DNA from: a virus
Strand: one strand, 5' to 3'
IMG/VR virus record: IMGVR_UViG_3300045988_113168
DNA length: 64,000 nucleotides
Positions 3,478 to 61,827 of this stretch are shown piece by piece. Position numbers and translations under genes: made by a program. Position 1 is the stretch's first letter, and each line of letters starts with the position of its first letter. The notes under the pieces were generated by a model that saw nothing but the letters and a program-made list of their open reading frames with translations, was not told where the DNA came from and did no database searches.

Positions 3478-4199
3478 GTCCAATCCAGTTGTGATTTTGA
3501 AATCTTTCCAAACTCCACGGTGCCAGCATAAACGCCATGCATCGTATTGTCGTAGTTCTTTATTTGCTGAATCTTTCTTACATGATTCATAAACACACTC
3601 ATAGGGTAGTCCATAGCCTTGAAGTAATCCGCTTTAAAGCCGGAGGAGCACGCCATTGAGAGAACAAGCTCCGCAAGTCGTGGCTCATAACGCTTTATTT
3701 TCTGATACTCCAAATTATCTCTGGCTTCCTCTATCATTGCAATCCTTGTCGGTTCGTCAGCGGCAAATTCGGAATGCTTTTCAATTCCATTCGCAGCACA
3801 TAGGTACTGAGAAATTGTTTCATACACTACATGGTCAATACGGGTATCCGTAAGTCTGTTGTGTAACACAATTTCACCACTTATGTTATCTTTTGCCATT
3901 ACAAACCCGGAAATATCCATATCGCCAAACAAAATAGACATATCTTGATTTTTGTTGCCTATAAAGAGCTGCCGAAACATTTCAAAGTCCGAAATTTTTT
4001 GCCAATCAACCCCAACAGAGTCAAGTTGTGCTTTATAGTCGCTTGATGTAGAGCAGAACAAATAAACCAACTGAAAATACTTTTGCTCACCATAATCGAT
4101 AATATCACCAACAGACGGCATGTGAATCGTAATTTTGTCGTTGATTTTAAAGTCTCTTCCACGCATCAAGCTCGGCTCGTACATTTCTCTAAGCTCCAT
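3462..4199 (-). CDS. hypothetical structural-module protein
   Basis: ORF; ATG at 4199 overlaps upstream stop (TAATG). Confidence 0.6.
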   Translation of the reverse strand: MELREMYEPSLMRGRDFKINDKITIHMPSVGDIIDYGEQKYFQLVYLFCSTSSDYKAQLDSVGVDWQKISDFEMFRQLFIGNKNQDMSILFGDMDISGFVMAKDNISGEIVLHNRLTDTRIDHVVYETISQYLCAANGIEKHSEFAADEPTRIAMIEEARDNLEYQKIKRYEPRLAELVLSMACSSGFKADYFKAMDYPMSVFMNHVRKIQQIKNYDNTMHGVYAGTVEFGKISKSQLDWTSKVN

Positions 4200-4678
4200 T
4201 AACCACACCCCACAAGATCATCCAGATCCTGCGTCTTAAACGTCATAATTCGCACACGATGGTGTAAATCCATGTTGTCCTCGATATTGGATGTGATTTT
4301 AAGTTGCTTAATTCCAAAAATTGTACTGCCGTGTAATTCTTTCTCCACTAAACCGCTCAGATAGTCAACTCGTGTTGCTCCACCATGACCTTTCATCTTC
4401 ATCAACGCCTGATTCACAATAACCCACACAGTAAGCGTAAAGTTCTCGTACCAGTCATTAACATTACTGCGGTCAGTCATGTTTACCTTAAAACAAATAT
4501 AGCTGTGTGCTGCCTCAATCGTGTCGGGAATATGGAAGTATGGGAAGATATATGTATAAATTGCCTCATCTGGCTCTTCAATATCATCATTACCCATCGC
4601 TTCAACAAGCCCATCCGTATTGACCAACTTTAAAGCTAATTTGTTTTTATAGTCCGTAATCAATTCACTCGTTGTCAC
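4199..4678 (-). CDS. hypothetical structural-module protein
   Basis: 159 aa, GTG start overlapping upstream TGA (GTGA), SD AAGGTGG. Confidence 0.6.
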   Translation of the reverse strand: MTTSELITDYKNKLALKLVNTDGLVEAMGNDDIEEPDEAIYTYIFPYFHIPDTIEAAHSYICFKVNMTDRSNVNDWYENFTLTVWVIVNQALMKMKGHGGATRVDYLSGLVEKELHGSTIFGIKQLKITSNIEDNMDLHHRVRIMTFKTQDLDDLVGCG

Positions 4679-5700
4679 AGCAAGCTCACCACCTTACATT
4701 CAATGGATGTATTTGCCGTACCATCTGCATTTGTCAGAGAAATTCTAACAGTTACGCCATCCATGATGCTATTATTCAAAATACGAATTTTGAAAACACC
4801 ATCCGTAGCAACCTGTGTTTCAACAAAACTCTTAAACTCATCAAGGCAAATAAAGCTCCACTTTGCAACTTCCGCAACTTCTTCGCCCGTAATGCTTGTG
4901 AATACCGGAATGAATTTCTTCCAAGAACCGCCAACACGAACTTCTGGCCTGCCTGCATACTTAATAGTAGCTGTAATCTGAGAGTCCGCACCTGGCTCAT
5001 TACTCTTGTTTGGCTCAAAGTAGTCACAAATCATCTTCTCAGCATTGTCCGTCTTGCTGTTATACTGATCTTGCCGAATATTCAACACAAGGAATCCCTG
5101 TGTCTTACCGTGCAGTTCATAGCGCTCTGTACTCTGATCAACAGAAGTCGTAACATATGTTTTCGGCTCTCCATTGATAATTTCCAACATAAAGCGCTTA
5201 TCAAGGTCAATCAGCGCAGTTTCATCATCGAAAGGCATCTGTACCTTATACTCACGCTGGCTCAGTGAAGTCACAACAAGCTCCTTATTATTTGCGTAAT
5301 AAGGCTTACTCAGTGTTGCCCAACGAGATACTATCTCACCAGTAATCGGATTTTGCCATTGAATCTGGCGGTTACACAGCTCCATTTTCCCACGAAGAAA
5401 AATCTCATCGTTCGGTTCAATCTCAGTCACCAGCCATTTACAGTTGTAGCAGTCAACAATATCACCAAGATTCAAAGAATCACCGGGGTAAGCCCAAATC
5501 TTCTTCTCCTTGGCTACGCTGTTACTACGGCTAACAACCAGCTTCTGAGGCAAACCATTCACCAGAGTATTATCCTCATAGTCAACACTATCCTTGAAGT
5601 GTGCAGCGAAGTCACGTTTCGCAAAAGCAATTTTGACATCCTTTTTATTAGACATCTTTGCGGCACCGCCAACAGCTCGTACCCTCGTATAAAAGTCCAT
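4675..5700 (-). CDS. hypothetical structural-module protein
   Basis: 341 aa, SD AAGGAGG 7 nt before ATG. Confidence 0.65.
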   Translation of the reverse strand: MDFYTRVRAVGGAAKMSNKKDVKIAFAKRDFAAHFKDSVDYEDNTLVNGLPQKLVVSRSNSVAKEKKIWAYPGDSLNLGDIVDCYNCKWLVTEIEPNDEIFLRGKMELCNRQIQWQNPITGEIVSRWATLSKPYYANNKELVVTSLSQREYKVQMPFDDETALIDLDKRFMLEIINGEPKTYVTTSVDQSTERYELHGKTQGFLVLNIRQDQYNSKTDNAEKMICDYFEPNKSNEPGADSQITATIKYAGRPEVRVGGSWKKFIPVFTSITGEEVAEVAKWSFICLDEFKSFVETQVATDGVFKIRILNNSIMDGVTVRISLTNADGTANTSIECKVVSLL

Positions 5701-6930: not shown

Positions 6931-6945
6931 AATTTGTCTCCTTTT

Positions 6946-6975: not shown

Positions 6976-6997
6976 CCAGATTTGCCTTTGGTAAAAA

Positions 6998-7171
6998 TTA
7001 CTGCAGAACAATCTTAGCAACGCGCTCGATATGATCAATGCTATAACCGAAGGTAAAGTCCTTGACCATCAGATGAATCTTCTCGTTATTGTTGTCGTGA
7101 TCCTCGTAAGTATGAGTCTCACCCTTCATGTCAAGGCGACCGATCTTGCCCGCGATACCATAAATTCTCTT
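6998..7171 (-). CDS. major capsid protein, exon 2 (C-terminal 57 aa)
   Basis: open frame KRIYGIAGKIGRLDMKGETHTYEDHDNNNEKIHLMVKDFTFGYSIDHIERVAKIVLQ* with no start codon or SD; continues exon 1 (..GSLLIPD) in frame after intron removal. Confidence 0.7.
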   Translation of the reverse strand, partial: KRIYGIAGKIGRLDMKGETHTYEDHDNNNEKIHLMVKDFTFGYSIDHIERVAKIVLQ

Positions 7172-8758: not shown

Positions 8759-9580
8759 ATCCGGGATCAGCAGGGAACCATCACCCAGCTTCTTGGCAGA
8801 GCTAATACCAGTAATAGCAACACCATCGTAAGTCTTAACCAGACCATAACGGTTAAACTCGTCCTTAGCTGCGTCAGACAGATACTCAGCGTAGCCGGTC
8901 ATACGACGCATCTTGGCACAATACTTCATCAGGCTGACAGTGAAGGGATTACCACCATCTGCGTACTCATTCAGATACAGAGCCAGAGCGTCCATATCCT
9001 GCATAGTGGGCTCCTTACCCTGTGCATCGATCTTCTGCTCGCCACCAGTGATAGCGTCATCAACCATGCTAAAGATGTCATAGAACATCTGGTTCTTCAG
9101 AGCCTCAGTCATAAAGGTGGTCAGAGTTGCCACACTCTTCCAAGCATTGCGTCTTACATCCACAAAGCTAAGATCAGCCTCGATCTGCTTATTACGCCAG
9201 ACGGGCTTAATGGTCTCGTAGTGCAGGTAAGACTTCGGCACGTTGCCGCCCTTAGCTGCATCATAAGCCTTCAGAGTGTTCTTAACAGTACGACCTGCCT
9301 CGTAATCATCAAACTCACCAACATTACCACGCTCAAACATGGAGTCCAGCAGCTCATCAGGTGCGCCATACAGCTCATCAGTCACGGTGCGGTTAACAAA
9401 CTGAGCAATCTCCTTGTTGGGGTCACCCTTGTCAATCAGCTCCTCAACATGAGCGCCAACAACCTCAGCAATCTCCTTATCCTCGGCATCCATAGCGCGA
9501 TTGTACTGAGTCTTCTCAGCAACTTCATAAACACGACCAGGCTGCTTCATCAGCTCGGCCACTTCAATATTCAGTGCCAT
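8759..9580 (-). CDS. major capsid protein, exon 1 (274 aa)
   Basis: position after scaffold/decoration genes and before a strong terminator; the TAA directly after ..LLIPD is the first intron codon. Confidence 0.65.
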
Positions 9581-9676: not shown

Positions 9677-10153
9677 TCAAGCAACAGTCTTTGCCTCGGG
9701 CAGCACACTGATCATAATCAGCTTATGGCCATTGTCATCCATCACACCAGCAAACTCAAAACGAGAAGTACCAGTAGTAGCAACCTGCCACTTACCGTCG
9801 GTATTAACCTCCAGCAGCTTGCCGATATTAGTGTCCTGTGCATCAGCAGTCTTGTACTGGTCAGTACCATACAGTTCGCCAGCATACAGAGGAACGCGCT
9901 TCACCAGCACACCTGCCTCAATCTTGGTGACCATCTTATCATAGTCATCAAAATTAGTCTGGCTTGCATAGATGCCCTCGGGAATAAACTCATGGGCAAC
10001 CATCTCGATGCCCTCAGCGGTAGCTGCATCAGGGAACTTAACCTGACCAGCCTTGTGGTCAACCTGAACACCCATACCGGTGACCATAGCGACCTTTGCG
10101 GCATAGTTAGCGGGAATATTCTTCGCGCCGTTCACCATCAGTTCACGAATCAT
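9677..10153 (-). CDS. putative head decoration-like protein
   Basis: 158 aa from ATG after GAAAGGA; sits between scaffold and capsid genes (lambda D-like position); function by synteny only. Confidence 0.35.
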   Translation of the reverse strand: MIRELMVNGAKNIPANYAAKVAMVTGMGVQVDHKAGQVKFPDAATAEGIEMVAHEFIPEGIYASQTNFDDYDKMVTKIEAGVLVKRVPLYAGELYGTDQYKTADAQDTNIGKLLEVNTDGKWQVATTGTSRFEFAGVMDDNGHKLIMISVLPEAKTVA

Positions 10154-10180
10154 AATATTTTTCCTTTCTCTCAAATGTTA

Positions 10181-11755
10181 TTACTTACCCAAATATTCCC
10201 GCCATGCGTCACGCTTGTTAGCGTTAGTGGTGTTATACTTGGTTTCATTCAAATTCAGCTTGATACTCTCAGGCTTATGTACCTCAGAAGTCTCAATATT
10301 CTTTTCAGCAGGCTTTGCATTCTTAGCGGCTTCAACACAGCGAGAAGCAATCACACCATTGATGCCAGCCTCATCCAGATTCTCAATCATACTTGCAAAT
10401 TCGCCCTCACCGGTCAGTTCAGCCTCAGTAATCATCTTGCTGGAAATAGCATACTGGCGCAGATTTTCCTTTTTCTGTGCAAGCTCGGCCTCCGCCTTTT
10501 CTGCAGCTGCCTTCTCCGCCTGTTCCTTGTACGGAGTCAGCTCCGCAATCTCATCCTTAGCAGACTGCAACTCTGTATTCAGGCTTGCGACAGTCTTGTT
10601 CAGCTCATCAATCTTGGTGTTGACCTGAGAAACAGAAACAGTCAGAGTAATATTCTGCGGCTCACCCAGAGAAACTTCATCACCCTCAACAGTATAAGGG
10701 AACATAATGTAATCCAACTCGTTCATGTAGCCCCACTTCTTGCACCAGATAGTGTGATCTTCAGGGAACATATCGGTCATGTAGTAATCAGAGCTAATCT
10801 TTGACACTGCATCTTCAAGCTTCATATACAGGTCACGACCGGTCAAACTGGAAGTCTCAGTGGTAGACTCCGGCTCTGGCTCACCAGCAGGCTCGGTGCT
10901 GGTTTCAGGCTCAGTCGGGGGAGGGGTTTCACCGCCTTCCTCAGAAGTCTGAACATCAGGCTCTGCCGGAGTGGTGGGCTCGGTGGTAGACTCAGTAGTG
11001 GTCTGTTCTGCCTGCTCAGTCTCGGTTTGATTCTCAACCTGTGCGGCCTGAGTCTCCTTGTCCTTATTCAGTTCCAAATTTTTTGCCTCCTTTTCATTAG
11101 ATTCTATATTTGAAATCTCTTTTGTGTCCTCGATATAGGCATTTGCCAATTCAAGACCAAAATCGGTTTCAGCGACTTCAAGCAGTTTAGAGCACTTATA
11201 TGCCGGTTCAACATTTGCACCAAGCAGACAATGTGCAGTAAACACGCCATCGTCAATAATTTTTGCCATGCGGCCACCCACGATTCCCTTATGAGCTTTT
11301 AGCACATCAATTTCCCAACTGGTATTTAATGTGCCACTCTCAATACGGCGCAGAATCGTCGCACAAGCTTTTGGATATCGCTTCCAGATCTTACAAGAGG
11401 CAACAATAAAGTCGGTATCGTCAATTTTCTCGATACCGACCGATTGAAAGCTACCGAACGCATCAGTGTCAAATTCGGCAGTCTTGTATTCATTGCCGTC
11501 AGCGTCTTTTCTGGTGACGACTTTCATATTGTGACCAGAAAAATCCAGTTCACCCTTTGGAGCTACGACCAACTTACCAACAAGCGGGTTGCCAACCAGT
11601 GTACTCATCCAACTTTCAATGGTTTCACGGTTCAAAGCAACCTGATTTCCATTTACTGAGAAATCACAAATGATAAACTTGGCAAGATAGTGGTCTGGAT
11701 GCTCCGTAATCTCAGAGCAACAGATGTTTCTACTATAGAAATACTCCTTACTCAT
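10181..11755 (-). CDS. putative prohead scaffold / protease-like protein
   Basis: 524 aa between portal and capsid genes; central acidic Thr/Glu/Pro-rich linker and C-terminal coiled coil (AELTPYKEQAEKAAAEKAEAELAQKKE). Confidence 0.45.
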   Translation of the reverse strand: MSKEYFYSRNICCSEITEHPDHYLAKFIICDFSVNGNQVALNRETIESWMSTLVGNPLVGKLVVAPKGELDFSGHNMKVVTRKDADGNEYKTAEFDTDAFGSFQSVGIEKIDDTDFIVASCKIWKRYPKACATILRRIESGTLNTSWEIDVLKAHKGIVGGRMAKIIDDGVFTAHCLLGANVEPAYKCSKLLEVAETDFGLELANAYIEDTKEISNIESNEKEAKNLELNKDKETQAAQVENQTETEQAEQTTTESTTEPTTPAEPDVQTSEEGGETPPPTEPETSTEPAGEPEPESTTETSSLTGRDLYMKLEDAVSKISSDYYMTDMFPEDHTIWCKKWGYMNELDYIMFPYTVEGDEVSLGEPQNITLTVSVSQVNTKIDELNKTVASLNTELQSAKDEIAELTPYKEQAEKAAAEKAEAELAQKKENLRQYAISSKMITEAELTGEGEFASMIENLDEAGINGVIASRCVEAAKNAKPAEKNIETSEVHKPESIKLNLNETKYNTTNANKRDAWREYLGK

Positions 11756-11766
11756 CGTTCATCACC

Positions 11767-13392
11767 TCACTTACTATCTTCATTTCTTTGCTGGTCATAA
11801 ATCTGTTTTTCAGTTTCCTCGCCCTTTGGACGGCCTGTCTTTTTATCACTGTCACCACCGCCTGGATTCCCAGTCGATGTATAAGAGGTCTGGCGAGCCA
11901 CAAACACATCGTCATAACCTTCCTCAGTTTCAGCCTGACGCTTGCGTAGTTCGTCCTCAGCATGAAGTCCCATGTACTCGTAAGCAGTCTTGTAAGAACA
12001 GTTCAAAGTGGTAAACAGGAACTGAGCAATCGCCTTCTTCATCTCCATACCCATCATTTCAGTAGTAGAGACCTTCACATCAGGGCAGTACATCGGGTCT
12101 ACACCTGCATCTTCAAGGCGAATACGATACCATCGCTTTAATACATCTTCAATCTGTTCTGCAATCTTACCGATATTTTTCATCAGCTGGTCAAGAGACA
12201 CCTTTGCAGTTGAAACAGTCTGTTGACCATCAGTATTCAAGAAACTAATACCCAAAGCAGCCATTTCTCGATTGCGATACTGTTTGACAGTCTCGATATT
12301 TGTCATCTCAACTTTTGGTTCAACATACTTGATATCCTTAACATAGGGAGCGGTCGTCACAAGCACGGTATTTTGCTTCCATGCACGTAGCAAATTGTCG
12401 TGTGCCGTCACCTGTTCAGAGAAGCCCTTTTTATCGTTATTTGGGCCCATCAATGCAGGATCAAGCTGTTGCCAGATGATTTTCTTTGCCTTTGCCTTAG
12501 CATTTACACGGTCTGAAGTATCAAAAGTCTCAAGCATCAATGCAGGACGTAAGGCGCGGAATAGGGGAGAGACACCATATTTCTGCCCCATATTGCCAAT
12601 ACGAATCACACCACAATGGTCAACATCCAATTTTGCATAGGTGTCACCATTCTTAAACGCTTGATACACCTCATCTGGATAGTTGTTTTGAATCTCAGTC
12701 TCCTGATTTTCAAAGAATAGTGCCTTATTCTTCTTGTCCTTCAGCATGGATTTGCTCAAAGCGGACTTCAATTTAGACATATTGATAAGCACAACAGGCT
12801 GTCCATTTGACAAATAATCACTGATTTCAGCAATACCAAGAGGGTAGTAGTCTACAATATAATTCTCATCTTTCTGGCGCAGATATGTAATGTAAGTGCC
12901 CTCGGCGTAAGTCATCGGAATGGCAGTACGCAACAGGCTTCGCACATTGATTTGTGTATTGAAATCATCAATCACTTCACGGGCATAGTTTACCTGTTTA
13001 GTTTTATTACGCTGTTCAGGGAACTGTGCGAAACTGCATTTGAACTCCGTATTAACATTCGCCTCAATCGCATCATAAGTAATGCCAATTAGGTCATCTT
13101 TATTGATGTAATTACGGATGATTCCATTGACCGTCTGCACATTCGTCAGGCTCGACTGTAACCCTCGCGCGAGCTCATCAATTCGGTCAACCGTCAGTGT
13201 CTCAGAGGAGGCTGAAATTTTCAGGTATGTACTATATTGCTTATTTTCTGGATCATATGACGCAACTGCATTTCGAATGACGTTGTTCATCCTCTCTTCT
13301 GAAAGTTCACTCAAAGAGGTTATAACAACAGTACCATCATCTGTCTGTGAAGCAGTCACGACATCAAAATCTTCCTTTTTCTTTCTTGCCAC
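11767..13392 (-). CDS. portal protein
   Basis: 541 aa immediately downstream of the large terminase; GTG start after GGAGGTG; call rests on size and synteny. Confidence 0.65.
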   Translation of the reverse strand: MARKKKEDFDVVTASQTDDGTVVITSLSELSEERMNNVIRNAVASYDPENKQYSTYLKISASSETLTVDRIDELARGLQSSLTNVQTVNGIIRNYINKDDLIGITYDAIEANVNTEFKCSFAQFPEQRNKTKQVNYAREVIDDFNTQINVRSLLRTAIPMTYAEGTYITYLRQKDENYIVDYYPLGIAEISDYLSNGQPVVLINMSKLKSALSKSMLKDKKNKALFFENQETEIQNNYPDEVYQAFKNGDTYAKLDVDHCGVIRIGNMGQKYGVSPLFRALRPALMLETFDTSDRVNAKAKAKKIIWQQLDPALMGPNNDKKGFSEQVTAHDNLLRAWKQNTVLVTTAPYVKDIKYVEPKVEMTNIETVKQYRNREMAALGISFLNTDGQQTVSTAKVSLDQLMKNIGKIAEQIEDVLKRWYRIRLEDAGVDPMYCPDVKVSTTEMMGMEMKKAIAQFLFTTLNCSYKTAYEYMGLHAEDELRKRQAETEEGYDDVFVARQTSYTSTGNPGGGDSDKKTGRPKGEETEKQIYDQQRNEDSK

Positions 13393-13409: not shown

Positions 13410-15260
13410 TTAGAAGTCAATATTAGAAATACAAATTGGCGGTGCAGTCATTACCTCCACCGCAGACTGGCGCACTTTATCCTTACGACGTAATTCATAT
13501 AGACGATGAGCAAGCAAGATCGCAACATAGAACCTATCATCGTGGATTTTGTTGGCAACATCGGGCGCTAAAGCATACGTTACAGTCGTGTTTTCAGAGT
13601 TTGTCGTTTTCTGAATACTTGTAATCTCGTTCTTCATCAAGTCGATGTTAACCCACGCAGTTTGTTCTTCTAAAGTAAGTTCATGCGTCTTCAAAATTTC
13701 TTGACCAGTTGATTTATCCACGCCGTCTACTACCTGAACGTAATCTCCGCCGTTATATTCAAGAGGGAAGTGAATGACGCCAAGATTCATCAACTCAATA
13801 AATTCCTCAACCATGGCAGTACGGAATTTACGAGGACTAATTAGACGTAGCTTATCAACAGCATCTGGGTAACGGGCATCATATCCTTCATATAATTCAT
13901 GATTTGCGTCGATAAAACCACGATGTTCCGCACCTGTTTTATCGGTCCAATTATTAAGCAAACCGTCCGCATATGTGGAAGTACCACCGCCGCCAGCGCC
14001 TTGGTCAATCATCAATCTATCAATGTACTCGTAATCAGGATTTTGACCATTGTAATGTAGAATCAACTCATGTAACTGCTCAAGCTGACGATTAGAATCG
14101 AGCTTGAATTTTTTCTCATTTGCAATATCAACCATGTTCACGCAGTTGATAATATCTCCACACATGCCATTTTCTGGATCGTTATAAATACGCATAACAC
14201 CAACAATAGAATTATCCATTGTGCGGGCAGGATCAAACGCAAGAATATACTGATAGTTCTTATCCCAATAAAGCTGTGGGATATACTTTCGCTCATTGCG
14301 ACGAACTGTGCCCCATTTGATAATCTGGTTTACGCCACCATCACGGCTTGGGCGATTATAATATTCACGCAACGCCTTCATTTTATTTGACTTTAGAGCG
14401 GCTTCCACTTTGTCTCTTGTCAACAAAGCCTTGTATGGTTTACCATTCATATAGACCTGAATTGCAACATCGCAAATCATGTCGCAAACAAAATAATCAC
14501 GGTCACCGGCGATCATACGTTTTGCAAAGTTTTTGTAATAACGATAGAATAGTTTATCCATTGTATCCTGACTCGAAGCATACACAAGTTGTGTAGGAAC
14601 CTTGCGAGGCTGAGTTTCAGGATTATAAGAATCATCCGTATCAGTCACGAAGTCAGTATTCTGAGTGGCAAAAGCTTCACAGACAACAATCAGTTCGTCA
14701 GAGCAAAACGCAGCCTCGTCAAAAAACACAAGAGTTGCACGACGGGATCGGTTGGAATCCGGGTTGGAGTTTAGCGTGTTAATGGAGCTACCGTTGTAAA
14801 ACTCAACAACATACCCGGCGGGATTATGACTAAAGCCACTCTTATTGGTTGCAGACTTTTTCGTTTCTTTCTCTGCAATATCTTGCAGACTACGGATAGA
14901 CGCAGCTGTTTTACCAACACGAGTGACAATTTCTTCGATTTTATTAAAAGTTTCCTTACTCTGATCACCAACGCTACTTACGATGTAAATAGCTTGGTTT
15001 TCATACAACATAGCCTTCAGTAGAATAAAAACAGAACCTACAAAAGACTTACCAAAATTTCGACTACACGCCCAAAGAACATGACTTGCATTCCAGCTTT
15101 GTTCCAGCATATATGCCTGAGCGTCAAATAGTTGGATACCCAATAAATCTCTGGCCGCAATAACAGGATTACGCCGATAGAACGCAATCGTTGCCGCATC
15201 ACACTCATAAATCTTACGTTTTACGGCTGTGATAATAGGCGCTCTTTGCTTCATTCTCAT
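13410..15260 (-). CDS. terL: terminase large subunit
   Basis: 616 aa; Walker A-like SRNFGKSF, Walker B LVFFDEAAF, C-terminal nuclease-size domain; followed by portal. Confidence 0.8.
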   Translation of the reverse strand: MRMKQRAPIITAVKRKIYECDAATIAFYRRNPVIAARDLLGIQLFDAQAYMLEQSWNASHVLWACSRNFGKSFVGSVFILLKAMLYENQAIYIVSSVGDQSKETFNKIEEIVTRVGKTAASIRSLQDIAEKETKKSATNKSGFSHNPAGYVVEFYNGSSINTLNSNPDSNRSRRATLVFFDEAAFCSDELIVVCEAFATQNTDFVTDTDDSYNPETQPRKVPTQLVYASSQDTMDKLFYRYYKNFAKRMIAGDRDYFVCDMICDVAIQVYMNGKPYKALLTRDKVEAALKSNKMKALREYYNRPSRDGGVNQIIKWGTVRRNERKYIPQLYWDKNYQYILAFDPARTMDNSIVGVMRIYNDPENGMCGDIINCVNMVDIANEKKFKLDSNRQLEQLHELILHYNGQNPDYEYIDRLMIDQGAGGGGTSTYADGLLNNWTDKTGAEHRGFIDANHELYEGYDARYPDAVDKLRLISPRKFRTAMVEEFIELMNLGVIHFPLEYNGGDYVQVVDGVDKSTGQEILKTHELTLEEQTAWVNIDLMKNEITSIQKTTNSENTTVTYALAPDVANKIHDDRFYVAILLAHRLYELRRKDKVRQSAVEVMTAPPICISNIDF

Positions 15261-16378: not shown

Positions 16379-16660
16379 CAATACACCTCCAATCAAAATC
16401 AAAAATAAAAGCCGTAGAACGTGCGCACATTCCACGGCAAACAAAAGACACCCTCTAATGTGCTTGCGTAGCAGAGGCCAAGGGTGTTTCATTCACAAAA
16501 GACCCACCATGATACGCATCGTTGAGAGGCTTAGTGGGCTCAGGCGGCTCCGCCATTGTACGCTTCCATGAGAAGCGCGGCGGAGTCTTCATCATCTATA
16601 TAGGTTTGCTACGTCAACGACGTATCGCGCCCTGCTACCGAAGTGGCATAATAATCAATC

Positions 16661-16723: not shown

Positions 16724-16799
16724 TGGCACGCCCACTCCGATTCGGACAGAGAACAAATGGTTTTAGAGACCACTGCTTTACCAATTAAGCTACGGGCGC
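16724..16799 (-). tRNA. suppressor tRNA, anticodon CUA (reads UAG), tRNA-Trp-like body, CCA encoded
   Basis: GCGCCCG-UA-GCUU-AAUUGGUA-AAGC-A-GUGGU-CUCUAAA-ACCAU-UUGUU-CUCUG-UCCGAAU-CGGAG-UGGGCGU-G-CCA. The 7-nt loop has U33 and A37, so positions 34-36 = CUA. Confidence 0.75.
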
Positions 16800-16820
16800 A
16801 TAAATATATCAGCATACAGG

Positions 16821-16900
16821 TGGGTGCAGCGGTTGGATTTGAACCAACGAATACACGGCTTATGAGGCCGGTGCCGTAGACCTGACTGGGCAACGCTGCG
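16821..16900 (-). tRNA. tRNA-Met (CAU), possibly initiator-like
   Basis: cloverleaf with loop CUCAUAA, T-loop UUCAAAU, encoded CCA; C1 x A72 mismatch is reminiscent of bacterial initiator tRNA. Confidence 0.65.
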
Positions 16901-17008
16901 TCATATGGTGCCTAAGTGTCTCAAGAAATAGAAAGTCATGTGTACATCATGATTCTAAAACCCAGACTTCGGACTTGCTATATGTCGCGCTCATATAGCC
17001 ATTTTCTT

Positions 17009-17116
17009 CGAGCTTGACAGGATTCGAACCTGCGCTGTATCCACGAATAAGCAATCTCGCTTCGTGCAGATGTCTGCTACCATCCGCTACGTTCAACCTC
17101 TTCGCATTACAAGCTC
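17009..17116 (-). ncRNA. atypical 108-nt tRNA-like RNA
   Basis: perfect 7-bp acceptor GAGCUUG/CAAGCUC, Ser-like D-arm (GCG-AAGAGGUUGAA-CGU) and canonical T-arm GCAGG-UUCGAAU-CCUGU. Two hairpins replace a standard anticodon arm. Confidence 0.4.
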
Positions 17117-17183
17117 ACAATAAAACCTACCTTTTAGCCGGTGGTAGGGAACCGGTATAATATAGGCCCTCCGGGAGAAGGAC

Positions 17184-17275
17184 TGGCGCGGTCTCAGAGA
17201 TTCGAACTCTGGCATCGGATTTACCGACCTAACGGTGTTCAAGACCGTTCTCTTCAACCACTTGAGTAAGACCGC
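17184..17275 (-). tRNA. tRNA-Ser (UGA), class II, CCA encoded
   Basis: GCGGUCU acceptor, loop CUUGAAC, long variable arm, T-loop UUCGAAU. Confidence 0.75.
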
Positions 17276-17387
17276 ACAATAAAAACAAGCATCCATCAAG
17301 CCACCCGAGCTAGTTGAATTGTTCTCGTGTTGATAAAACGCTTGTTTTAAACTTTAATGGTCCGCACTTACGGTGGCGGAACACCAA

Positions 17388-17461
17388 TGCCAGAGGTCGG
17401 GTACGATCCGACAGTCTGCTGATTACAGGTCAGCTGCATTATCCATTTATGCTACCCTGGC
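17388..17461 (-). tRNA. tRNA-Thr (UGU) with unusual loops
   Basis: GCCAGGG acceptor, anticodon loop CCUGUAA (C33), T-loop AUCGUAC (A54/U58 swap). Confidence 0.6.
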
Positions 17462-17489
17462 AAATAACCCGTAGACACTAGCCTACGGG
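17461..17489 (-). terminator. hairpin + U-tract upstream of tRNA-Thr (terminator or processing site)
   Basis: minus-sense CCCGTAG-gctagtgt-CTACGGG then TTATTTG. Confidence 0.45.
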
Positions 17490-20499: not shown

Positions 20500-21249
20500 T
20501 CATAAATCAAACATTTTTCTATTTTGCACGGTTTTCTCAATATTTACGTTTTTAGCGCACTTACGACAGTATTTTTGTCTGCGTCCGGTGCGAGCAACCA
20601 TCTTTCCGCAACAATCACACTTGATGTACTCTTTCCCACAATACTGGCTCCACAGAATACCAGCATTCTCAAAATCGTCCACGAAAATCTCATGAGGAGA
20701 ATCCGGCTCCGCAATCAAAACATGGATGTTCAAGTTGTCAATCTTTTTCAAGCTGGCAAACCCAATAAAGCCAAGATTATGTAACTCACAAATCATCTCG
20801 TTCTGTTTTTTTTCATTCGCGGATACGTTTGCCATCCTGAAAATATCAGCCGTATCTTCCGTAATCCAGTAGTTGCATTTTTCATTAACTGCAATATGAT
20901 ATTTTGCCAGACACAGCATCGTAAACATCAAGCGTTGCATCTGCTTGCCCTCAAGTGCTTGAATCTTCTCTACCTCTGCTTTTGTAATGCACACACCATC
21001 AAGTTCCACCATAGGACGGCCTTTAGCAGAAGCGATTGCTTTATCAATCAGTTCTCTATCCAGAACCTTGTTGTACCCTTCAAAATGACGCAACATATAC
21101 TCGTTGAGCTTTTCTCTTACATCATCCTTTGAGTACCCTTTGTAAAAATAGTACTTCGCAACATAATGCAAAACATGCCCCGCCCTTTTCCAAGGTACAT
21201 CCTTTTCTAGCCACTCTTCAGCGTAAAGAACTTCATTCAATACAATCAT
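20500..21249 (-). CDS. hypothetical protein with C-terminal zinc ribbon
   Basis: 249 aa; second ATG is properly spaced from AAGGAGG; CDCCGK...CRKC. Confidence 0.6.
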   Translation of the reverse strand: MIVLNEVLYAEEWLEKDVPWKRAGHVLHYVAKYYFYKGYSKDDVREKLNEYMLRHFEGYNKVLDRELIDKAIASAKGRPMVELDGVCITKAEVEKIQALEGKQMQRLMFTMLCLAKYHIAVNEKCNYWITEDTADIFRMANVSANEKKQNEMICELHNLGFIGFASLKKIDNLNIHVLIAEPDSPHEIFVDDFENAGILWSQYCGKEYIKCDCCGKMVARTGRRQKYCRKCAKNVNIEKTVQNRKMFDL

Positions 21250-24016
21250 CCGCATCCTCCTTGCTATTCATGTTAATCAACACATCCTTGAAACGCTTGC
21301 CATCATATTCAATATCGCCATTCTCGTCCTGCACAAGAGAATGCACCATACCGTCATGGCGTTCCAATAAGCGTTTAATCAAAGTATCATGAAACAGTTC
21401 CCAGACGATTGCAATACTGGATGCATTCTTCTTACAAAGATCAAGCATAATATCGCAAAGCACATCGTCATTGGAACATTTATCGTGAAGATTACGGAAC
21501 ATGCTTTCCTGATATAGCGCAATTCGTTCCTTGCGGTCTGCGCTGGTTTCTTTATTATTGTTTCCGTTGCCAGAATGGATTGCGTTGCCACGAGCAAATC
21601 TCAAGTAATCCTTAAAAATAGAGCGAATACCATAGTATTGAGAATTAGTGTACTCAATGCCAGACTTGAGCGAGTCGTAATCAAACTTGCGCTTTATCTT
21701 GAGTTCTTCTTCAAAATCTTCCAGCTCGTCCTCAACAGTCCAGCATAGGCGGTTCATGGTACAAGAATTGATTCCGACCGGCATCCGATAGAGGTAATAC
21801 TGGATAACCATTTCATCCACATCGTCCTTGACGGTCTTTTGCATAATCTCATCCAGACCAGCAAACCCATCCCACTTGATGCGCTTGCGAGCTGCGGCCA
21901 CATACTGCTTGTAGTCTCGCATCTGAGAAGGATAAATATAACTCATAAAGTACGGCTTTCGATAAGCACAAATACGAGCCAAGAATTTTTTATCCTCGAT
22001 AGTATCTGGGTTATCACCCTCGCTTGGAACGCAAGCTTTGTTGTCATACCAATATTTTGGCATAGGTACGCAGGAAATTCCCTTTATGCGATCAATCGTG
22101 TCCTGTTGATATTTCTGGCCAGAAATAATACGATATGTAAGCTCTTTATATTCTCTACTTTCTGGCTCAAATTTACTCTGTACATCAAACATCGTTGTAA
22201 TACGATTAGTTACCTTGCCGATATCATCACCAAATCCATTGATATTAGAGTCAATGAAATCCTGCTCGGTTGGAATTTTCTTTTCACCTTTTTTCTGAGC
22301 ACAAAGAATTACAGTCTCATCCCTCCATCTATCAAGGAGGACTCTGTTATCTGTGCTAAAGATGAGATCGCCATCCCAGTCCATTCCGTCGAGTGCTGCA
22401 CATGTGTTATCAAACGCACTTACGATAGCTACAGTCTTCATGTAACGATACCAGTTCTTACATTCGTCACTCGAATTTAAATTTAAGCACCGAATATTCG
22501 CCATCTGACTCATAGGAGCTCTAAAACAAGCCACTCGCTTAACATCTCTATCATTCCAAAAACGGCTGTAAACCTCACCGGCCTTTAACAGTCCAGTGAC
22601 TTCCATTCCAAAGATGGATTGGCAAAGTGCGTATGGATCTCCGCTTGCTACTTGAAAATTCCCTCGTACCTTCACAACACCCGTCTTTGCCTGAGAGATT
22701 CGCTTTTTAATAAAGTACCGAATTCGATTCTGCACATACGGGTCGTTAATCATGTCCGGCTCAATCATGAGAGCCTTAATGTAATCATTCTCAAGAGAGT
22801 TGACATACCCTGCGTCATCTCGCATCCCGCTTCCACGCAAATACAGCAACGCATCACGCCAGTCGCCGCCCATGACACCTTTGATTTCATCCAGAGTCGG
22901 CTTGACCAGTTCTCTAATCTCGTCATTCGTAAGCTGATAGCTTTGAATGAATTGATAATTCAAATTGCGTTCTTCATCAAGTTCCAACTCGCAGGTTTTC
23001 GTTACAGAGAAGTGATAATGGTTTTCCTGACAATTTTCAAAGTAATCCTCACAATTATGGTAACTATCCCATAGCTTTAACATCGACCCTGTAAGAATCA
23101 CTTGAACACGATTAACATCCTTATAGTTCCCCCAAATGTCCTTCACCATATTCTTTTTCGCAATCTTCTTTGCGAACTCACGGAAAGGGAAGGGGAATAG
23201 CATACCTTTACAAAAAGCGTTCCGTACACAGAAACCAGATGCTGTGGATGGCAGCTTTAAATCTTCGCTCCACTGTTGAGCAAGGTCATAGCTAATGAGT
23301 CCAAAACCATCGCTAGCGCACAACTCACAATCATGTTCCATATCCTCTACCATCGTAGGCTCACCGGATGCTCCATCGTCCAGAACGATTACATGGTCTT
23401 TGAAATGAGTGAAACAATCGTCTACGACCAGCACACCGTCTGGATCAGTGACCGGAATGGATGCAGAGCAGGCGAGTGCCCGATATGCTTCCAGCTTTGC
23501 CGGAATAAACTCCATTCCCTTGTTACGGCCATTGTCGATTCGTTTGCGGATCTCATCAACAAGACGGTCGCTCACAAACACAATCGTACTATTCTTGACA
23601 CCACCGGTAGTTCCAACCAAACGACGATATGTAATCCCATTGATTTTGAACCCTTTAGGAGAACATGCCCGGCGGTAATCATTCTTCTTGTCTACCACCA
23701 GACACATATAATCCGGCTTGAACTGAACTGCATCCAACTCAGTATACAATCTCCGAATCTCCCGGCGGTTCTCTAAACAAGATTGTTCATTCCGTAACAT
23801 CTTGATTCTACGCTTGATGCTCCGTGCCTTAGACTCTGCATCCGTAACACCATTCAACTCGTCAATCCATCGTAGAACAGTGCTATCAGCTAACGAGATG
23901 ATCTCGTGGTTTCGTCTGGCTTCATCCAATGGTAGGGTTAAATCCCATTTCGCTTCAACTAGACGCTTCGTATGAATCTTAAAAACAAACTTCTGACAAG
24001 TTTGCTGTTTTGCCAT
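21233..24016 (-). CDS. putative single-subunit RNA polymerase (YonO / RdRP-like two-barrel family)
   Basis: 927 aa; ALDGMDWDGDLIFS contains the DxDGD metal-binding signature of two-barrel RNAPs and cellular RdRPs. It is preceded by VACFRAPMSQMANIR (the R.P element seen in RdRP alignments). Confidence 0.55.
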   Translation of the reverse strand: MAKQQTCQKFVFKIHTKRLVEAKWDLTLPLDEARRNHEIISLADSTVLRWIDELNGVTDAESKARSIKRRIKMLRNEQSCLENRREIRRLYTELDAVQFKPDYMCLVVDKKNDYRRACSPKGFKINGITYRRLVGTTGGVKNSTIVFVSDRLVDEIRKRIDNGRNKGMEFIPAKLEAYRALACSASIPVTDPDGVLVVDDCFTHFKDHVIVLDDGASGEPTMVEDMEHDCELCASDGFGLISYDLAQQWSEDLKLPSTASGFCVRNAFCKGMLFPFPFREFAKKIAKKNMVKDIWGNYKDVNRVQVILTGSMLKLWDSYHNCEDYFENCQENHYHFSVTKTCELELDEERNLNYQFIQSYQLTNDEIRELVKPTLDEIKGVMGGDWRDALLYLRGSGMRDDAGYVNSLENDYIKALMIEPDMINDPYVQNRIRYFIKKRISQAKTGVVKVRGNFQVASGDPYALCQSIFGMEVTGLLKAGEVYSRFWNDRDVKRVACFRAPMSQMANIRCLNLNSSDECKNWYRYMKTVAIVSAFDNTCAALDGMDWDGDLIFSTDNRVLLDRWRDETVILCAQKKGEKKIPTEQDFIDSNINGFGDDIGKVTNRITTMFDVQSKFEPESREYKELTYRIISGQKYQQDTIDRIKGISCVPMPKYWYDNKACVPSEGDNPDTIEDKKFLARICAYRKPYFMSYIYPSQMRDYKQYVAAARKRIKWDGFAGLDEIMQKTVKDDVDEMVIQYYLYRMPVGINSCTMNRLCWTVEDELEDFEEELKIKRKFDYDSLKSGIEYTNSQYYGIRSIFKDYLRFARGNAIHSGNGNNNKETSADRKERIALYQESMFRNLHDKCSNDDVLCDIMLDLCKKNASSIAIVWELFHDTLIKRLLERHDGMVHSLVQDENGDIEYDGKRFKDVLINMNSKEDADDCIE

Positions 24017-28940: not shown

Positions 28941-28976
28941 CTATACTCATTATACCATGAGATTGCCAAAAATTCA

Positions 28977-36995: not shown

Positions 36996-37241
36996 ATGAT
37001 GCGTAATTGTTGGATTGTCACATACAAAGATTATCACGGAGAATATAGCTAGTGTGTTTTTTATAAAAAAGAGGATGCAGAAAAATGTATCAAAGAGGAT
37101 TTTGAAAACGCGTTGCATGACTTAAAAAAAGATGGGTGGTATGACCCGTACACGGTTGATGGAACGTATTGGAAGACAATATTTATTCCGAATACCGATA
37201 TTGATTATGAATGGAATCTTAAGATTTCAACCATTAGATGA
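36996..37241 (+). CDS. hypothetical protein with in-frame TAG (codon 19, 37050-37052)
   Basis: SD TTGAGGTGATAAT-ATG is identical in style to neighbouring genes. Coding-like sequence on both sides of the TAG (..YKDYHGEYS-x-CVFYKKEDAEKCIKEDFENAL..). It fills an otherwise empty 250-nt gap. Confidence 0.6.
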
Positions 37242-58551: not shown

Positions 58552-58558
58552 CTGATAT

Positions 58559-61620: not shown

Positions 61621-61827
61621 ATGAACAGCAAAATTTCTATCAATGCAACCATCGACCCCGGTTCTTTGAGTATTCCGGCAAGTCCTATCTTCCAACAGGA
61701 AAAGAATACATATTTTTGTCCGTTTTGTGTGACGAAGCTGTAGAAGTTCGAGCGTGAATGTTCTGATTGTCATCGCAAGATGGATTGGAGTAGGTTCACT
61801 GAAAAGAAGGAGGAGGTGTTCACTTGA
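61621..61827 (+). CDS. zinc-ribbon protein with in-frame TAG (codon 41, 61741-61743)
   Basis: reading through the TAG completes a CPFC-x10-CSDC zinc ribbon. The extended frame ends in a TGA that overlaps the TTG start of the next gene (TTGA) behind AAGGAGGAGG. Confidence 0.65.

What the first reader, a model, noticed from the sequence alone, without database searches (positions are those of the whole stretch)
16724..16799. Phage-encoded amber-suppressor tRNA on a tRNA-Trp-like scaffold, while TAG is never used as a terminator
The minus-strand tRNA folds canonically with loop CUCUAAA, giving anticodon CUA. Its body closely parallels bacterial tRNA-Trp as I recall E. coli tRNATrp: D-loop AAUUGGUA, loop CUCCAAA differing only at position 35, variable xUGUU, and discriminator G. 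Every CDS I call in this window (about 115) ends in TAA or TGA. None ends in TAG, and two genes need TAG read-through (separate findings). Classical genetics shows that a Trp-derived CUA suppressor (su7) is largely charged with Gln, so the inserted residue is open. Here recoding is sparse and lies in early-type small genes, not in the late genes reported for other recoded phages.
Basis: partly seen in the sequence, partly recalled or inferred. Interest (0 to 1): 0.8.

Follow-up and report, generated by a model that had tools for sequence, protein, structure and literature searches.

The report
Phage tRNA reads TAG as tryptophan
A large human-gut phage carries a working amber-suppressor tRNA descended from a tryptophan tRNA, and comparison with about 200 sister genomes indicates that this phage family reads the stop codon TAG as tryptophan, a meaning I did not find reported for phages.

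Summary
ARAGORN and Rfam both call a canonical tRNA with anticodon CUA at 16724-16799(-). None of about 100 credible genes in the window ends in TAG.

The window comes from an SPbeta-like phage of about 130 kb that is common in human gut metagenomes. Its nearest non-suppressor relative among 321 family tRNAs is a phage tRNA-Trp(CCA), at 78% identity against 68% or less for all others. The two share the acceptor stem and the G73 discriminator.

In sister genomes, recurrent in-frame TAGs sit in late genes, including the large terminase. Every recurrent site but one lies where the other genomes have TGG or another aromatic codon, with 8 recurrent Trp sites against 1 Gln site. They occur almost only in genomes that carry a CUA tRNA (49/3/3/25, Fisher p=2.5e-14). 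Genomes with a tRNA identical to the window's rely on it in this way.

So the inserted residue is most likely Trp, not Gln as in E. coli su7. This window has TGG at all those sites. Its own two in-frame TAGs (37050 and 61741) are lineage-specific and fall at non-Trp positions in small genes.

I rate it a new variant of a known kind, namely phage stop-codon recoding. The recoding here is sparse, polymorphic, and UAG to Trp.

The parts
16724..16799 (-). Amber-suppressor tRNA (anticodon CUA), body type 'A'. It has a tRNA-Trp-derived scaffold, G1:U72, G73 and an encoded CCA.
   Evidence: ARAGORN. Rfam tRNA at 56.3 bits. Nearest non-suppressor tRNA is Trp(CCA) at 78%. The identical sequence occurs in L005 and L021, which carry W->TAG in late genes.
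16724..16820 (-). A cassette of about 97 nt (21-nt spacer plus the suppressor tRNA) that is present or absent as one unit immediately 3' of the 80-nt tRNA-Met.
   Evidence: L004, L006 and L065 join the tRNA-Met 3' end directly to the sequence that follows the suppressor in the window. L011 and L012 keep only the 5' half of the suppressor.
16821..17462 (-). Rest of the late-module tRNA array: tRNA-Met 16821-16900, a tRNA-like gene with a 28-nt anticodon-loop insert at about 17008-17117, tRNA-Ser(UGA) 17184-17275 and tRNA-Thr(UGU) 17387-17462.
   Evidence: The array's composition varies between relatives.
37050..37052 (+). In-frame TAG at codon 19 of small ORF 36996-37241 (81 codons). There is no ATG downstream of the TAG.
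   Evidence: Four distant homologues have TAC (3) or ACA (1) at this position.
61621..61827 (+). A 68-codon zinc-ribbon gene (CPFC...CSDC) with an in-frame TAG at codon 41 (61741-61743), between the two CxxC knuckles.
   Evidence: All 74 relatives have GAA or GAG (Glu) here, and both halves are conserved.
15072..15095 (-). Terminase codons W56 (15093-15095) and W63 (15072-15074). Both are TGG in the window. W56 is TAG in 5 of about 140 related loci and W63 in 61, just upstream of the Walker-A motif 'GKS'.
4002..5496 (-). Four Trp codons in three virion-module genes, all TGG in the window and TAG in relatives: 4002-4004 (g3462 W69), 4424-4426 (g4199 W85), 5434-5436 (g4675 W89) and 5494-5496 (g4675 W69).
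13410..15260 (-). Large terminase (yonF position), used as the anchor gene for the family comparison.
   Evidence: phrog_2 and Pfam Terminase_6N. 205 relatives in IMG/VR.
21233..24016 (-). YonO-like single-subunit RNA polymerase, upstream on the same strand as the tRNA array and the late genes.
   Evidence: Pfam RdRP PF05183 at 5.7e-14. YonJ_N, YonG_N and YonD_N domains flank the array and the terminase.

Best explanation
The gene at 16724-16799(-) encodes a functional amber-suppressor tRNA that descends from a phage tRNA-Trp. I infer that it is charged with tryptophan, most likely by the host TrpRS. Recognition would go through the invariant acceptor stem (G1:U72, C2-G71, G3-C70, C4-G69...) and G73, not through the anticodon. 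It decodes UAG as Trp in competition with RF1.

The tRNA belongs to a set of exchangeable tRNA cassettes in the late-gene tRNA array of an SPbeta-like temperate phage family from human-gut Clostridia. The family has almost purged TAG as a terminator. Members that carry a CUA tRNA have converted a few conserved Trp codons (TGG to TAG) in packaging and structural genes. Completing those proteins therefore depends on the suppressor, which sits in the same late transcription unit.

The genome in this window is a low-recoding member. It has the suppressor and no TAG terminators, it keeps TGG at all family recoding sites, and it carries only two lineage-specific in-frame TAGs in small accessory genes, which the suppressor would read through.

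Shown: the tRNA and its anticodon, the Trp ancestry, the TAG/TGG alignment, the association between the tRNA and in-frame TAGs, and the terminator depletion.

Inferred: Trp charging, which synthetase does it, the timing of expression, and any regulatory purpose.
For: The tRNA is real and under selection. ARAGORN and Rfam call it. Thirteen family tRNAs (11 CUA suppressors of seven or more body types plus 2 Trp(CCA)) keep the cloverleaf, with compensatory changes in 13 of 21 pairs and 97.8% of cells paired, against 36-51% when the partners are slid.

Trp ancestry. The nearest non-suppressor tRNA is the phage Trp(CCA) at 78%, against 68% or less for all others. The acceptor stem and G73 are shared, and in some genomes Trp(CCA) occupies the same array slot as suppressor type B.

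UAG read as Trp. In-frame TAG lies opposite the window's TGG at 7 sites (129 locus events), against 5 Gln sites (6 events). A wider survey finds 8 recurrent sites where the alternative is TGG or an aromatic codon, against 1 recurrent CAG site. The probability that 7 of 7 sites fall on TGG by chance is 1.6e-9 over all one-step neighbour codons, or 3e-4 counting transitions only.

Dependence on the tRNA. L027 terminase reads '...SHVL*ACSRNFGKS' where the window reads '...SHVLWACSRNFGKS', upstream of the Walker A motif. Suppressor presence against W->TAG presence gives 49/3/3/25, Fisher p=2.5e-14. Two of the three exceptions carry a truncated suppressor. Every body type, including the window's exact sequence (L005, L021) and its 1-nt variant (L027, L028), co-occurs with W->TAG.

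Terminator depletion. TAG ends 0 of 97 genes in the window and about 0.6-0.7% in family members with or without the tRNA. Relatives at 65-71% terminase identity use it in 13-14% of genes.

Late-gene bias. There are 8 recurrent sites among 94 late-module TGG codons, against 1 among 147 early-module TGG codons (p=0.003).

Late-operon position. The array lies between the yonJ-like and yonG-like genes, downstream of a YonO-like RNAP on the same strand.

Identity-rule knowledge. G73 plus the first base pair are Trp determinants in bacteria, and G1-U72/G73 occurs in a genuine bacterial-type tRNA-Trp from rice mitochondria (PMC9976931).
Against: There is no direct evidence of aminoacylation or of the inserted residue. 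C35 of the anticodon is a major TrpRS determinant in the model bacteria studied. E. coli tRNATrp(CUA) is charged largely with Gln. B. subtilis TrpRS prefers G2-C71 and G4-C69, which this tRNA lacks.

The window's own two TAGs align with Glu and with Tyr/Thr, not Trp. Sporadic TAGs opposite Gln, Tyr or Gly exist in relatives, two of them in suppressor-less genomes.

The association statistics ignore shared ancestry. The acceptor-stem invariance is partly built in for the types found with my search pattern, although types A, B, E and F and the Trp(CCA) tRNAs were found independently by ARAGORN.

Only 64 kb of about 130 kb is visible, so a phage-encoded synthetase or release-factor modulator cannot be excluded. 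The host species is unknown. The gene calls come from my own crude caller.
Confidence: 0.74

Rival explanations
1. su7-like behaviour. The Trp-derived CUA tRNA is charged mainly with glutamine (by GlnRS, or by GluRS plus GatCAB) because of U35 and G73. UAG would then mean Gln, as in all other TAG-recoded phages described.
For: E. coli tRNATrp(CUA) is glutaminylated (PMC9976931). In E. coli extract, 28 of 29 tested phage tRNA-CUA inserted Gln (PMC12636597). A few TAGs in relatives align with CAG (5 sites, 6 events).
Against: Recurrent TAG sites are at invariant TGG positions, 8 against 1. TGG->TAG and CAG->TAG are equally one-step transitions, and CAG is twice as common as TGG. The acceptor stem has C2-G71 and G1:U72 rather than the U1-A72, G2-C71 and G3-C70 set that I recall as the E. 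coli GlnRS determinants. The review says only that pairs 1-72 and 3-70 matter for Gln identity. The phage has its own, quite different tRNA-Gln(UUG) (68% identity).
Confidence: 0.1
2. In this particular genome the suppressor is not there to decode phage genes. It is either a mobile or selfish tRNA cassette hitch-hiking in a hypervariable array, or a tool for perturbing host or competitor translation by reading through host TAG stops. The two in-frame TAGs would then be incidental pseudogene lesions.
For: The window has TGG at every family recoding site. Its two TAGs are unique to this lineage, at non-Trp positions in small accessory genes. The tRNA is a clean indel of about 97 nt relative to close relatives. 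Three suppressor-bearing loci have no TAG in the 22 kb examined.
Against: The identical tRNA is needed for late genes in L005 and L021, and its 1-nt variant for the terminase in L027 and L028. Half of this genome is unseen and may hold Trp-site TAGs. The family-wide purge of TAG terminators indicates long-term suppression acting on phage genes.
Confidence: 0.12
3. It is a pyrrolysine tRNA, as ARAGORN labels it.
For: Only the anticodon CUA and ARAGORN's default label.
Against: It has a standard cloverleaf: a 2-nt connector, an 8-nt D-loop with GG, a 5-bp anticodon stem and a 4-5-nt variable loop. It matches the general tRNA model in full. The body is Trp-like. None of the roughly 30 larger window proteins scanned against Pfam or PHROGs returned a PylS or PylBCD family, but the roughly 70 remaining, mostly small ORFs were not scanned. 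TAG aligns with Trp codons.
Confidence: 0.01
4. It is a decaying or non-functional tRNA-Trp paralogue whose anticodon mutation is neutral, and TAG absence is only a compositional effect.
For: The T-loop is unusual (UCCGAAU, with C at position 55). The fold energy is not exceptional (z=-1.2). One lineage shows a truncated copy.
Against: Extensive compensatory covariation across body types. 111 IMG/VR contigs carry the family. There is a tight association with in-frame TAGs in essential genes. TGA makes up 44% of the window's stop codons, so G+C composition alone does not obviously account for the loss of TAG.
Confidence: 0.03

Closest known systems
Suppressor tRNAs of stop-codon-recoded gut phages (crAss-like, Lak, Garnet, Amethyst, Topaz, Agate, Jade; Borges et al. 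preprint 10.1101/2021.08.26.457843; Peters et al. PMC9523058)
   Same: The tRNA(CUA) is phage-encoded. The recoded stop codon is depleted as a terminator. In-frame stops are concentrated in structural and packaging genes. Closely related genomes with and without recoding coexist. A suppressor can be present in genomes that are otherwise close to standard code.
   Different: Those phages read TAG as Gln, and Borges et al. state that only TAG->Gln and TGA->Trp were seen. Here TAG aligns with Trp and the tRNA is Trp-derived. Recoding is very sparse (0-3 sites per 22 kb), so coding-density screens would class the family as standard code. Treating TAG as sense raises the window's coding coverage only from 81.5% to 82.7%.
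E. coli su7 (supU), the amber suppressor derived from tRNA-Trp
   Same: A tRNA-Trp body with anticodon CUA (a C35->U change), G73 and a weak first base pair.
   Different: su7 is a single-step laboratory mutant that is mostly charged with Gln. The phage tRNA is a diverged natural paralogue (78% identity to the phage Trp(CCA)) with a different acceptor stem (G1:U72, C2-G71), and comparative data point to Trp insertion.
Balanophoraceae plastid genetic code (NCBI table 32, UAG = Trp; recalled from memory; a 2026 preprint held in the library mentions 'UAG to Trp')
   Same: The same codon reassignment, UAG to Trp.
   Different: That is an organelle with an extremely AT-rich reduced genome and a fixed reassignment. 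This is a virus acting inside a standard-code host, with a dedicated suppressor tRNA and recoding that is polymorphic from site to site.
TGA->Trp recoded phages with tRNA(UCA), some with their own TrpRS (Jade, Agate; AP1 TrpRS:tRNA-UCA, PMC12636597)
   Same: A stop codon read as Trp through a Trp-type suppressor with G73.
   Different: The codon is different (UGA pairs with a near-cognate Trp anticodon, and U34 keeps C35 and A36). No TrpRS was found among the larger window proteins scanned, and the rest of the genome is unseen.
Bacillus phage SPbeta
   Same: The genome is about 130 kb. It has a YonO-like RNAP, a yonJ / yonG / terminase / portal-position / yonD gene order, and an integrase.
   Different: The relationship is distant (terminase about 26% identical). 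The host is a gut Clostridia member. The phage has large variable tRNA arrays, a Pnkp-ligase fusion and the suppressor system.

Membership tests
Canonical elongator tRNA (Rfam RF00005) | Cloverleaf with 7/4/5/5-bp stems and a full-length match above the gathering score | tested here: met
   56.3 bits against a gathering score of 29, model positions 1-71. ARAGORN. MFE cloverleaf. Covariation in the D, anticodon and T stems.
Amber suppressor tRNA | Anticodon CUA in a 7-nt loop | tested here: met
   Loop CUCUAAA, anticodon at position 34-36.
Amber suppressor tRNA | In-frame UAG codons in genes that must be read through | tested here: met
   Terminase W63 is TAG in 61 related loci, including those with the same tRNA type (A2). 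The window has two in-frame TAGs.
Amber suppressor tRNA | Demonstrated aminoacylation and read-through activity | not testable with these tools
   Needs charging assays, a reporter assay or proteomics.
tRNA-Trp lineage | Closest sequence relatives are tRNA-Trp | tested here: met
   77.9% to the phage Trp(CCA), against 68.4% or less for 25 other anticodon classes. Aligned.
tRNA-Trp lineage | Bacterial Trp acceptor identity: G73 and a weak first pair | tested here: met
   G73 and G1:U72 are invariant in all 13 aligned family members. The identity rules come from PMC9976931.
tRNA-Trp lineage | Anticodon CCA, with C35 a major TrpRS determinant | tested here: not met
   The anticodon is CUA. Trp charging is therefore an inference from codon alignments, not from identity rules.
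tRNA-Pyl | Atypical fold (6-bp anticodon stem, 3-nt variable loop, small D-loop without GG) with pylS/pylBCD nearby | tested here: not met
   Standard fold with a GG-containing D-loop. No PylS/PylBCD family among the roughly 30 larger window proteins scanned; the small ORFs were not scanned.
Gln-inserting amber suppressor (code 15 phages; su7 behaviour) | In-frame TAG aligns with Gln codons in homologues | tested here: not met
   8 recurrent Trp or aromatic sites against 1 recurrent Gln site.
Alternatively coded (stop-recoded) phage in the sense of Borges et al. | Many genes fragmented under the standard code, with coding density rising when the stop is read as sense | tested here: not met
   Coverage rises only from 81.5% to 82.7%. 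Only two credible in-frame TAGs in 64 kb.
Alternatively coded (stop-recoded) phage in the sense of Borges et al. | Matching suppressor tRNA, recoded stop not used as a terminator, in-frame stops biased to late genes | tested here: met
   tRNA(CUA) present. 0 of 97 TAG terminators. Family TAG sites are in the late module.
SPbeta-like phages | YonO-type RNAP and the yonJ-yonG-terminase-yonE-yonD gene order | tested here: met
   Pfam RdRP on the 927-aa protein. YonJ_N, YonG_N and YonD_N in that order around the terminase. Distant terminase hits to SPbeta phages.

The most novel reading that the evidence does not exclude
A widespread human-gut phage family uses a natural UAG->Trp code variant, caught at its earliest stage. 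TAG has already been purged as a terminator. Interchangeable suppressor cassettes derived from tRNA-Trp move in and out of the late-gene tRNA array. A handful of invariant Trp codons in terminase and virion genes flip between TGG and TAG depending on whether a cassette is present. As far as I could find, this would be the first UAG->Trp reassignment outside Balanophoraceae plastids and the first in a virus. It would also imply that a bacterial or phage TrpRS accepts a CUA anticodon through acceptor-stem identity.
Probability: 0.65. Interest if true: 0.85.

Novelty: new variant of a known kind. Interest (0 to 1): 0.78.

Why it matters
Phage stop-codon recoding has so far been described as TAG->Gln or TGA->Trp. 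That limit has been taken to mean that only GlnRS and TrpRS can be hijacked, each for its 'natural' near-cognate stop codon. A TAG->Trp system would break that rule.

It would also provide a natural series of tRNATrp(CUA) variants with a fixed acceptor stem. These could serve as a ready-made probe of TrpRS identity rules and as candidates for genetic-code-expansion pairs.

The family further offers a rare population-level snapshot of codon reassignment in progress: terminator loss, then gain of a suppressor, then site-by-site capture. Members with and without the suppressor differ by a single cassette.

On the practical side, these genomes pass as standard code in density-based screens. Their terminase and virion genes are therefore split or truncated in automated annotation.

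Tried and rejected
1. A near-identity search of GenBank phages found nothing. Only distant terminase hits to Bacillus and Clostridium phages came back, so no annotated reference exists.

2. Re-calling genes with TAG as sense produced mostly spurious 5' extensions with negative coding scores. Only 36996-37241 was kept from that list. Gene 61621-61827 emerged only from the comparison with relatives.

3. A broad survey of TAG-containing ORFs in all frames was dominated by off-frame ORFs and was not used as evidence.

4. ARAGORN alone undercounted suppressors because it misses the 75-nt types with odd T-loops. That made several TAG-bearing genomes look suppressor-less. A sequence pattern fixed this.

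5. A sigma-70 promoter scan of the array found nothing. It is uninformative if late genes are transcribed by the YonO-like polymerase.

6. The host search gave only relatives at 65-71% identity, in an Anaerovorax chromosome and a Eubacteriales MAG, plus a probably mis-binned Bacteroidota contig. The host is therefore assigned to class level only.

7. Literature searches for a phage TAG->Trp reassignment found none. The library is incomplete, so this is absence of evidence only.

8. I did not look for a phage TrpRS or release factor beyond the window. None turned up among the roughly 30 larger window proteins scanned.
Full report
**1. The observation**

ARAGORN finds 12 tRNAs in the window. One is a 76-nt gene at 16724-16799 on the minus strand with anticodon cta, which the program labels 'tRNA-Pyl' by default. 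Rfam's general tRNA model matches 16727-16799(-) end to end at 56.3 bits, against a gathering score of 29. The minimum-free-energy fold is a cloverleaf.

The sequence is GCGCCCGUAGCUUAAUUGGUAAAGCAGUGGUCUCUAAAACCAUUUGUUCUCUGUCCGAAUCGGAGUGGGCGUGCCA. It has anticodon loop CUCUAAA, D-loop AAUUGGUA, a G1:U72 pair, discriminator G73 and an encoded CCA. The T-loop is unusual (UCCGAAU).

I scored ORFs with a codon-usage model and selected them greedily. That gave 97 ORFs covering 81.5% of the window, of which 54 end in TAA, 43 in TGA and none in TAG. The remaining TAG-ended ORFs on the coding strands all have coding scores of 1.1 or less and lie in tRNA arrays or intergenic DNA.

**2. What the window is**

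Genes run on the minus strand to about 29 kb and on the plus strand afterwards. The minus block contains:
- a large terminase at 13410-15260;
- a head-maturation protease, a virion structural protein and an integrase;
- a PhoH protein and a 927-aa protein matching Pfam RdRP, as expected of a YonO-type RNA polymerase.

In public assemblies that encode the identical terminase, the neighbouring proteins carry the Pfam domains YonJ_N, YonG_N and YonD_N in SPbeta order. All of those assemblies are human gut metagenomes.

There is no close match in GenBank phages, and the terminase is only about 26-29% identical to Bacillus and Clostridium phage terminases. IMG/VR holds 205 relatives of the terminase on contigs of up to about 138 kb. 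More distant relatives, at 65-71% identity, lie in an Anaerovorax chromosome and a Eubacteriales MAG.

So the window comes from an SPbeta-like, probably temperate phage of about 130 kb that infects gut Clostridia.

**3. The tRNA family**

The tRNA array upstream of the terminase varies greatly between relatives. CUA tRNAs occur in at least three positions and in several diverged body types. A few genomes instead carry a tRNA-Trp(CCA) with almost the same acceptor stem and D-arm, in the slot that suppressor type B occupies elsewhere.

A pattern built on the shared ends and the CUCUAAA loop finds the family in 111 IMG/VR contigs, as 18 distinct sequences. It also recovers 75-nt types that ARAGORN misses.

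I aligned 11 suppressors and 2 Trp(CCA) tRNAs and counted pairs on the cloverleaf:
- 97.8% of cells are paired, against 36-51% when the partners are slid;
- 13 of 21 pairs show compensatory changes, all in the D, anticodon and T stems;
- the acceptor stem, G73 and CCA are essentially invariant.

The acceptor invariance is partly imposed by my pattern. However, types A, B, E and F and the Trp(CCA) tRNAs were found independently by ARAGORN.

Among 321 distinct tRNAs from all fetched loci, the window's tRNA is closest to Trp(CCA) at 77.9%. The next classes (Phe, Gln, Leu) reach 68.4%. The 'Trp scaffold' reading is therefore supported by a test and not only by recollection.

Relative to L004, L006 and L065, the window's suppressor plus a 21-nt spacer is a clean insertion of about 97 nt after the 80-nt tRNA-Met. 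L011 and L012 retain only its 5' half.

**4. What UAG means**

I ran tblastn with the window's proteins against 351 related loci. Recurrent in-frame TAGs in relatives fall exactly where the window has TGG:

| Gene | Trp codon | Loci with TAG |
|---|---|---|
| Terminase | W63 | 61 |
| Terminase | W56 | 5 |
| g4675-5700 | W89 | 29 |
| g4675-5700 | W69 | 19 |
| g3462-4208 | W69 | 10 |
| g4199-4678 | W85 | 4 |
| g11767-13392 | W338 | 1 |

That is 7 sites and 129 events. TAG opposite Gln occurs at 5 sites with 6 events in total.

A query-independent survey adds further sites. One is in the yonG-like gene, where homologues have TGG (64), TTT/TTC (43) or TAT (33) and 10 have TAG. Overall it finds 8 recurrent sites where the alternative is Trp or another aromatic residue, against 1 recurrent Gln site.

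TGG is only 5.5% of the sense codons one step from TAG in the late genes, and 32% if only transitions are counted. Seven of seven sites falling on TGG therefore has p = 1.6e-9 or 3e-4.

The sites matter for function. L027 terminase reads '...SHVL*ACSRNFGKS...' where the window reads '...SHVLWACSRNFGKS...', upstream of the Walker A motif.

Among 80 terminase-centred loci the counts are:
- 49 with both a suppressor and at least one W->TAG;
- 25 with neither;
- 3 with a suppressor only;
- 3 with TAG only.

This gives Fisher p = 2.5e-14, not corrected for shared ancestry. Of the three TAG-only loci, two carry the truncated suppressor and one is a 4.8-kb contig. Every body type co-occurs with W->TAG, including the window's exact sequence (L005, L021) and its one-nucleotide variant (L027, L028, terminase W63).

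The simplest reading is that these tRNAs insert Trp at UAG.

**5. TAG as a terminator**

In family members without any suppressor of this kind, 14 of 1471 called genes end in TAG. About ten look like genuine terminators. One example is the orthologue of window gene 32629-32916, which ends in TGA in the window.

In suppressor-bearing members 61 of 2596 end in TAG, and 46 of those are read-through sites. That leaves about 0.6%.

Relatives at 65-71% terminase identity use TAG normally, in 3 of 21 and 4 of 30 genes. TAG-terminator loss is thus a derived trait of the whole family and not of this genome. This fits the 'stop-codon depletion precedes recoding' idea of Borges et al..

**6. The window's own in-frame TAGs**

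Treating TAG as sense barely changes the gene set, raising coverage to 82.7%. Two cases survive scrutiny.

(a) ORF 36996-37241 reads MMRNCWIVTYKDYHGEYS[TAG]CVFYKKEDAEKC... It has no ATG after the TAG. Four distant homologues have TAC (3) or ACA (1) at that position.

(b) ORF 61621-61827 is a 68-codon CPFC...CSDC zinc ribbon with a ribosome-binding site. Its TAG is at codon 41, between the two knuckles. All 74 relatives have GAA or GAG there, and both halves are conserved.

Both TAGs are unique to this lineage and fall at non-Trp positions. They are best seen as recent nonsense changes that a resident suppressor makes tolerable, or as lesions in dispensable genes. They are not like the recurrent Trp-site recoding seen elsewhere in the family. 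At all seven family sites the window has TGG.

**7. Mechanism**

Shown:
- a conserved tRNA(CUA) of Trp ancestry;
- correspondence between UAG and Trp codons;
- dependence of in-frame TAGs on the presence of the tRNA;
- a late-module bias, with 8 recurrent sites among 94 late TGG codons against 1 among 147 early ones (p=0.003, with unequal sampling);
- the location of the array between the yonJ-like and yonG-like genes, downstream of the YonO-like polymerase on the same strand.

Inferred:
- The tRNA is charged with Trp, probably by the host TrpRS using G73 and the invariant acceptor stem. G73 and the first pair are Trp determinants in bacteria, and G1-U72/G73 occurs in a bacterial-type tRNA-Trp.
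- Its C2-G71 and G1:U72 may disfavour GlnRS. This rests on the E. coli GlnRS identity set as I recall it; the review says only that pairs 1-72 and 3-70 matter.
- Being in the late unit, it may make completion of terminase and virion proteins conditional on late transcription, as proposed for other recoded phages.

Against the Trp-charging inference, C35 is a major TrpRS determinant in model bacteria, and B. subtilis TrpRS prefers G2-C71 and G4-C69. A phage-encoded synthetase in the unseen half of the genome cannot be excluded.

**8. Comparison with what is known**

Phage suppressor tRNAs and stop-codon recoding are well described. The surveys I could read report only TAG->Gln and TGA->Trp (or Gly when the host uses code 25). 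A 2025 screen of 213 phage suppressor tRNAs in E. coli extract found Gln for 28 of 29 tested CUA tRNAs and Ala for one, plus Tyr for one engineered pairing. It found no Trp at UAG. Phrase searches for UAG/TAG-to-Trp returned only a plant-organelle paper. From memory, UAG = Trp is NCBI table 32 (Balanophoraceae plastids).

The tRNA works like E. coli su7 in form, being a Trp body with a CUA anticodon. It differs in that it is a diverged natural paralogue, and the evidence points away from Gln.

The window is not a recoded phage by the coding-density criterion. It does meet the other hallmarks of recoded phages.

**9. Verdict**

It is a functional, Trp-derived amber suppressor in a family that appears to read UAG as Trp, with sparse and polymorphic recoding of late genes. 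This genome is a low-recoding member of that family.

I rate the novelty as a new variant of a known kind. My confidence that the tRNA is a functional suppressor is about 0.9. My confidence that it inserts Trp is about 0.75.

Noticed in passing
window 8417-8759 (-) and 7181-8347 (-): A group I intron (Rfam RF00028, 75.3 bits) sits next to an HNH homing-endonuclease ORF (phrog_559, 1e-88; treble-clef zinc finger). Both lie inside the late module and apparently interrupt a structural gene (flanking ORFs 8756-9580 and 6229-7129).
   Followed up: partly
window 16502-16584 (-): Two tandem hairpins just 3' of the suppressor tRNA give sub-threshold matches to the abiF RNA motif (25.6 and 23.9 bits against a gathering score of 37). 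A terminator-like hairpin follows at 16438-16411. This could be a phage-borne RNA mimic of an abortive-infection or type III antitoxin repeat, or it could be chance.
   Followed up: no
window ~17008-17117 (-): A tRNA-like gene (acceptor GAGCUUG, good T-arm) carries a 28-nt insertion in the anticodon loop. ARAGORN in intron mode calls it Ser(gct)-like. Relatives L027 and L028 carry an uninterrupted tRNA-Ser(GCU) in the array.
   Followed up: partly
window 28645-30733: About 2 kb at the divergent strand switch has no ORF with positive coding score. It may be a regulatory or origin region, and the GC skew changes sign here.
   Followed up: no
window 56032-58242 (+) and 58309-59644 (+): A 736-aa polynucleotide kinase-phosphatase / RNA ligase fusion (phrog_8238, 5e-225) lies directly upstream of a second array of 8-9 tRNAs. 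This looks like a tRNA-repair and tRNA-supply module, probably against host anticodon nucleases. The array includes an odd tRNA-His with predicted anticodon AUG (58989-59062) and a weak tRNA hit at 59472-59540 that only Rfam calls.
   Followed up: partly
window 21233-24016 (-): A 927-aa protein matches Pfam RdRP (PF05183), as expected of a YonO-type single-subunit DNA-dependent RNA polymerase. This supports SPbeta-like late transcription.
   Followed up: partly
L011 and L012, 8620-8660: These two relatives have the window-type suppressor truncated within the anticodon loop by a deletion, yet still carry one Trp-site TAG (g4675 W89). They may be defective genomes, or they may depend on a suppressor supplied in trans.
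   Followed up: partly
L074-L077, L079, L080 (terminase match 10001-12243): The terminase gene is about 395 nt longer than in the window, through an intron- or intein-like insertion. In the suppressor-less L079 and L080 the terminase ends in TAG where 116 relatives have TAA.
   Followed up: no
window 60363-61592 (+): A 409-aa ORF with a CxxxCxxC-type motif (SFGCKYCF), suggesting a radical-SAM-like enzyme, overlaps the preceding ORF by about 116 nt. Pfam gave only a weak DUF1848 hit.
   Followed up: no
window 191-1180 (-): A tyrosine integrase (phrog_1, 1e-50) sits at the end of the late module. Together with a 65%-identical terminase inside an Anaerovorax chromosome (L353), it suggests a temperate lifestyle.
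   Followed up: partly
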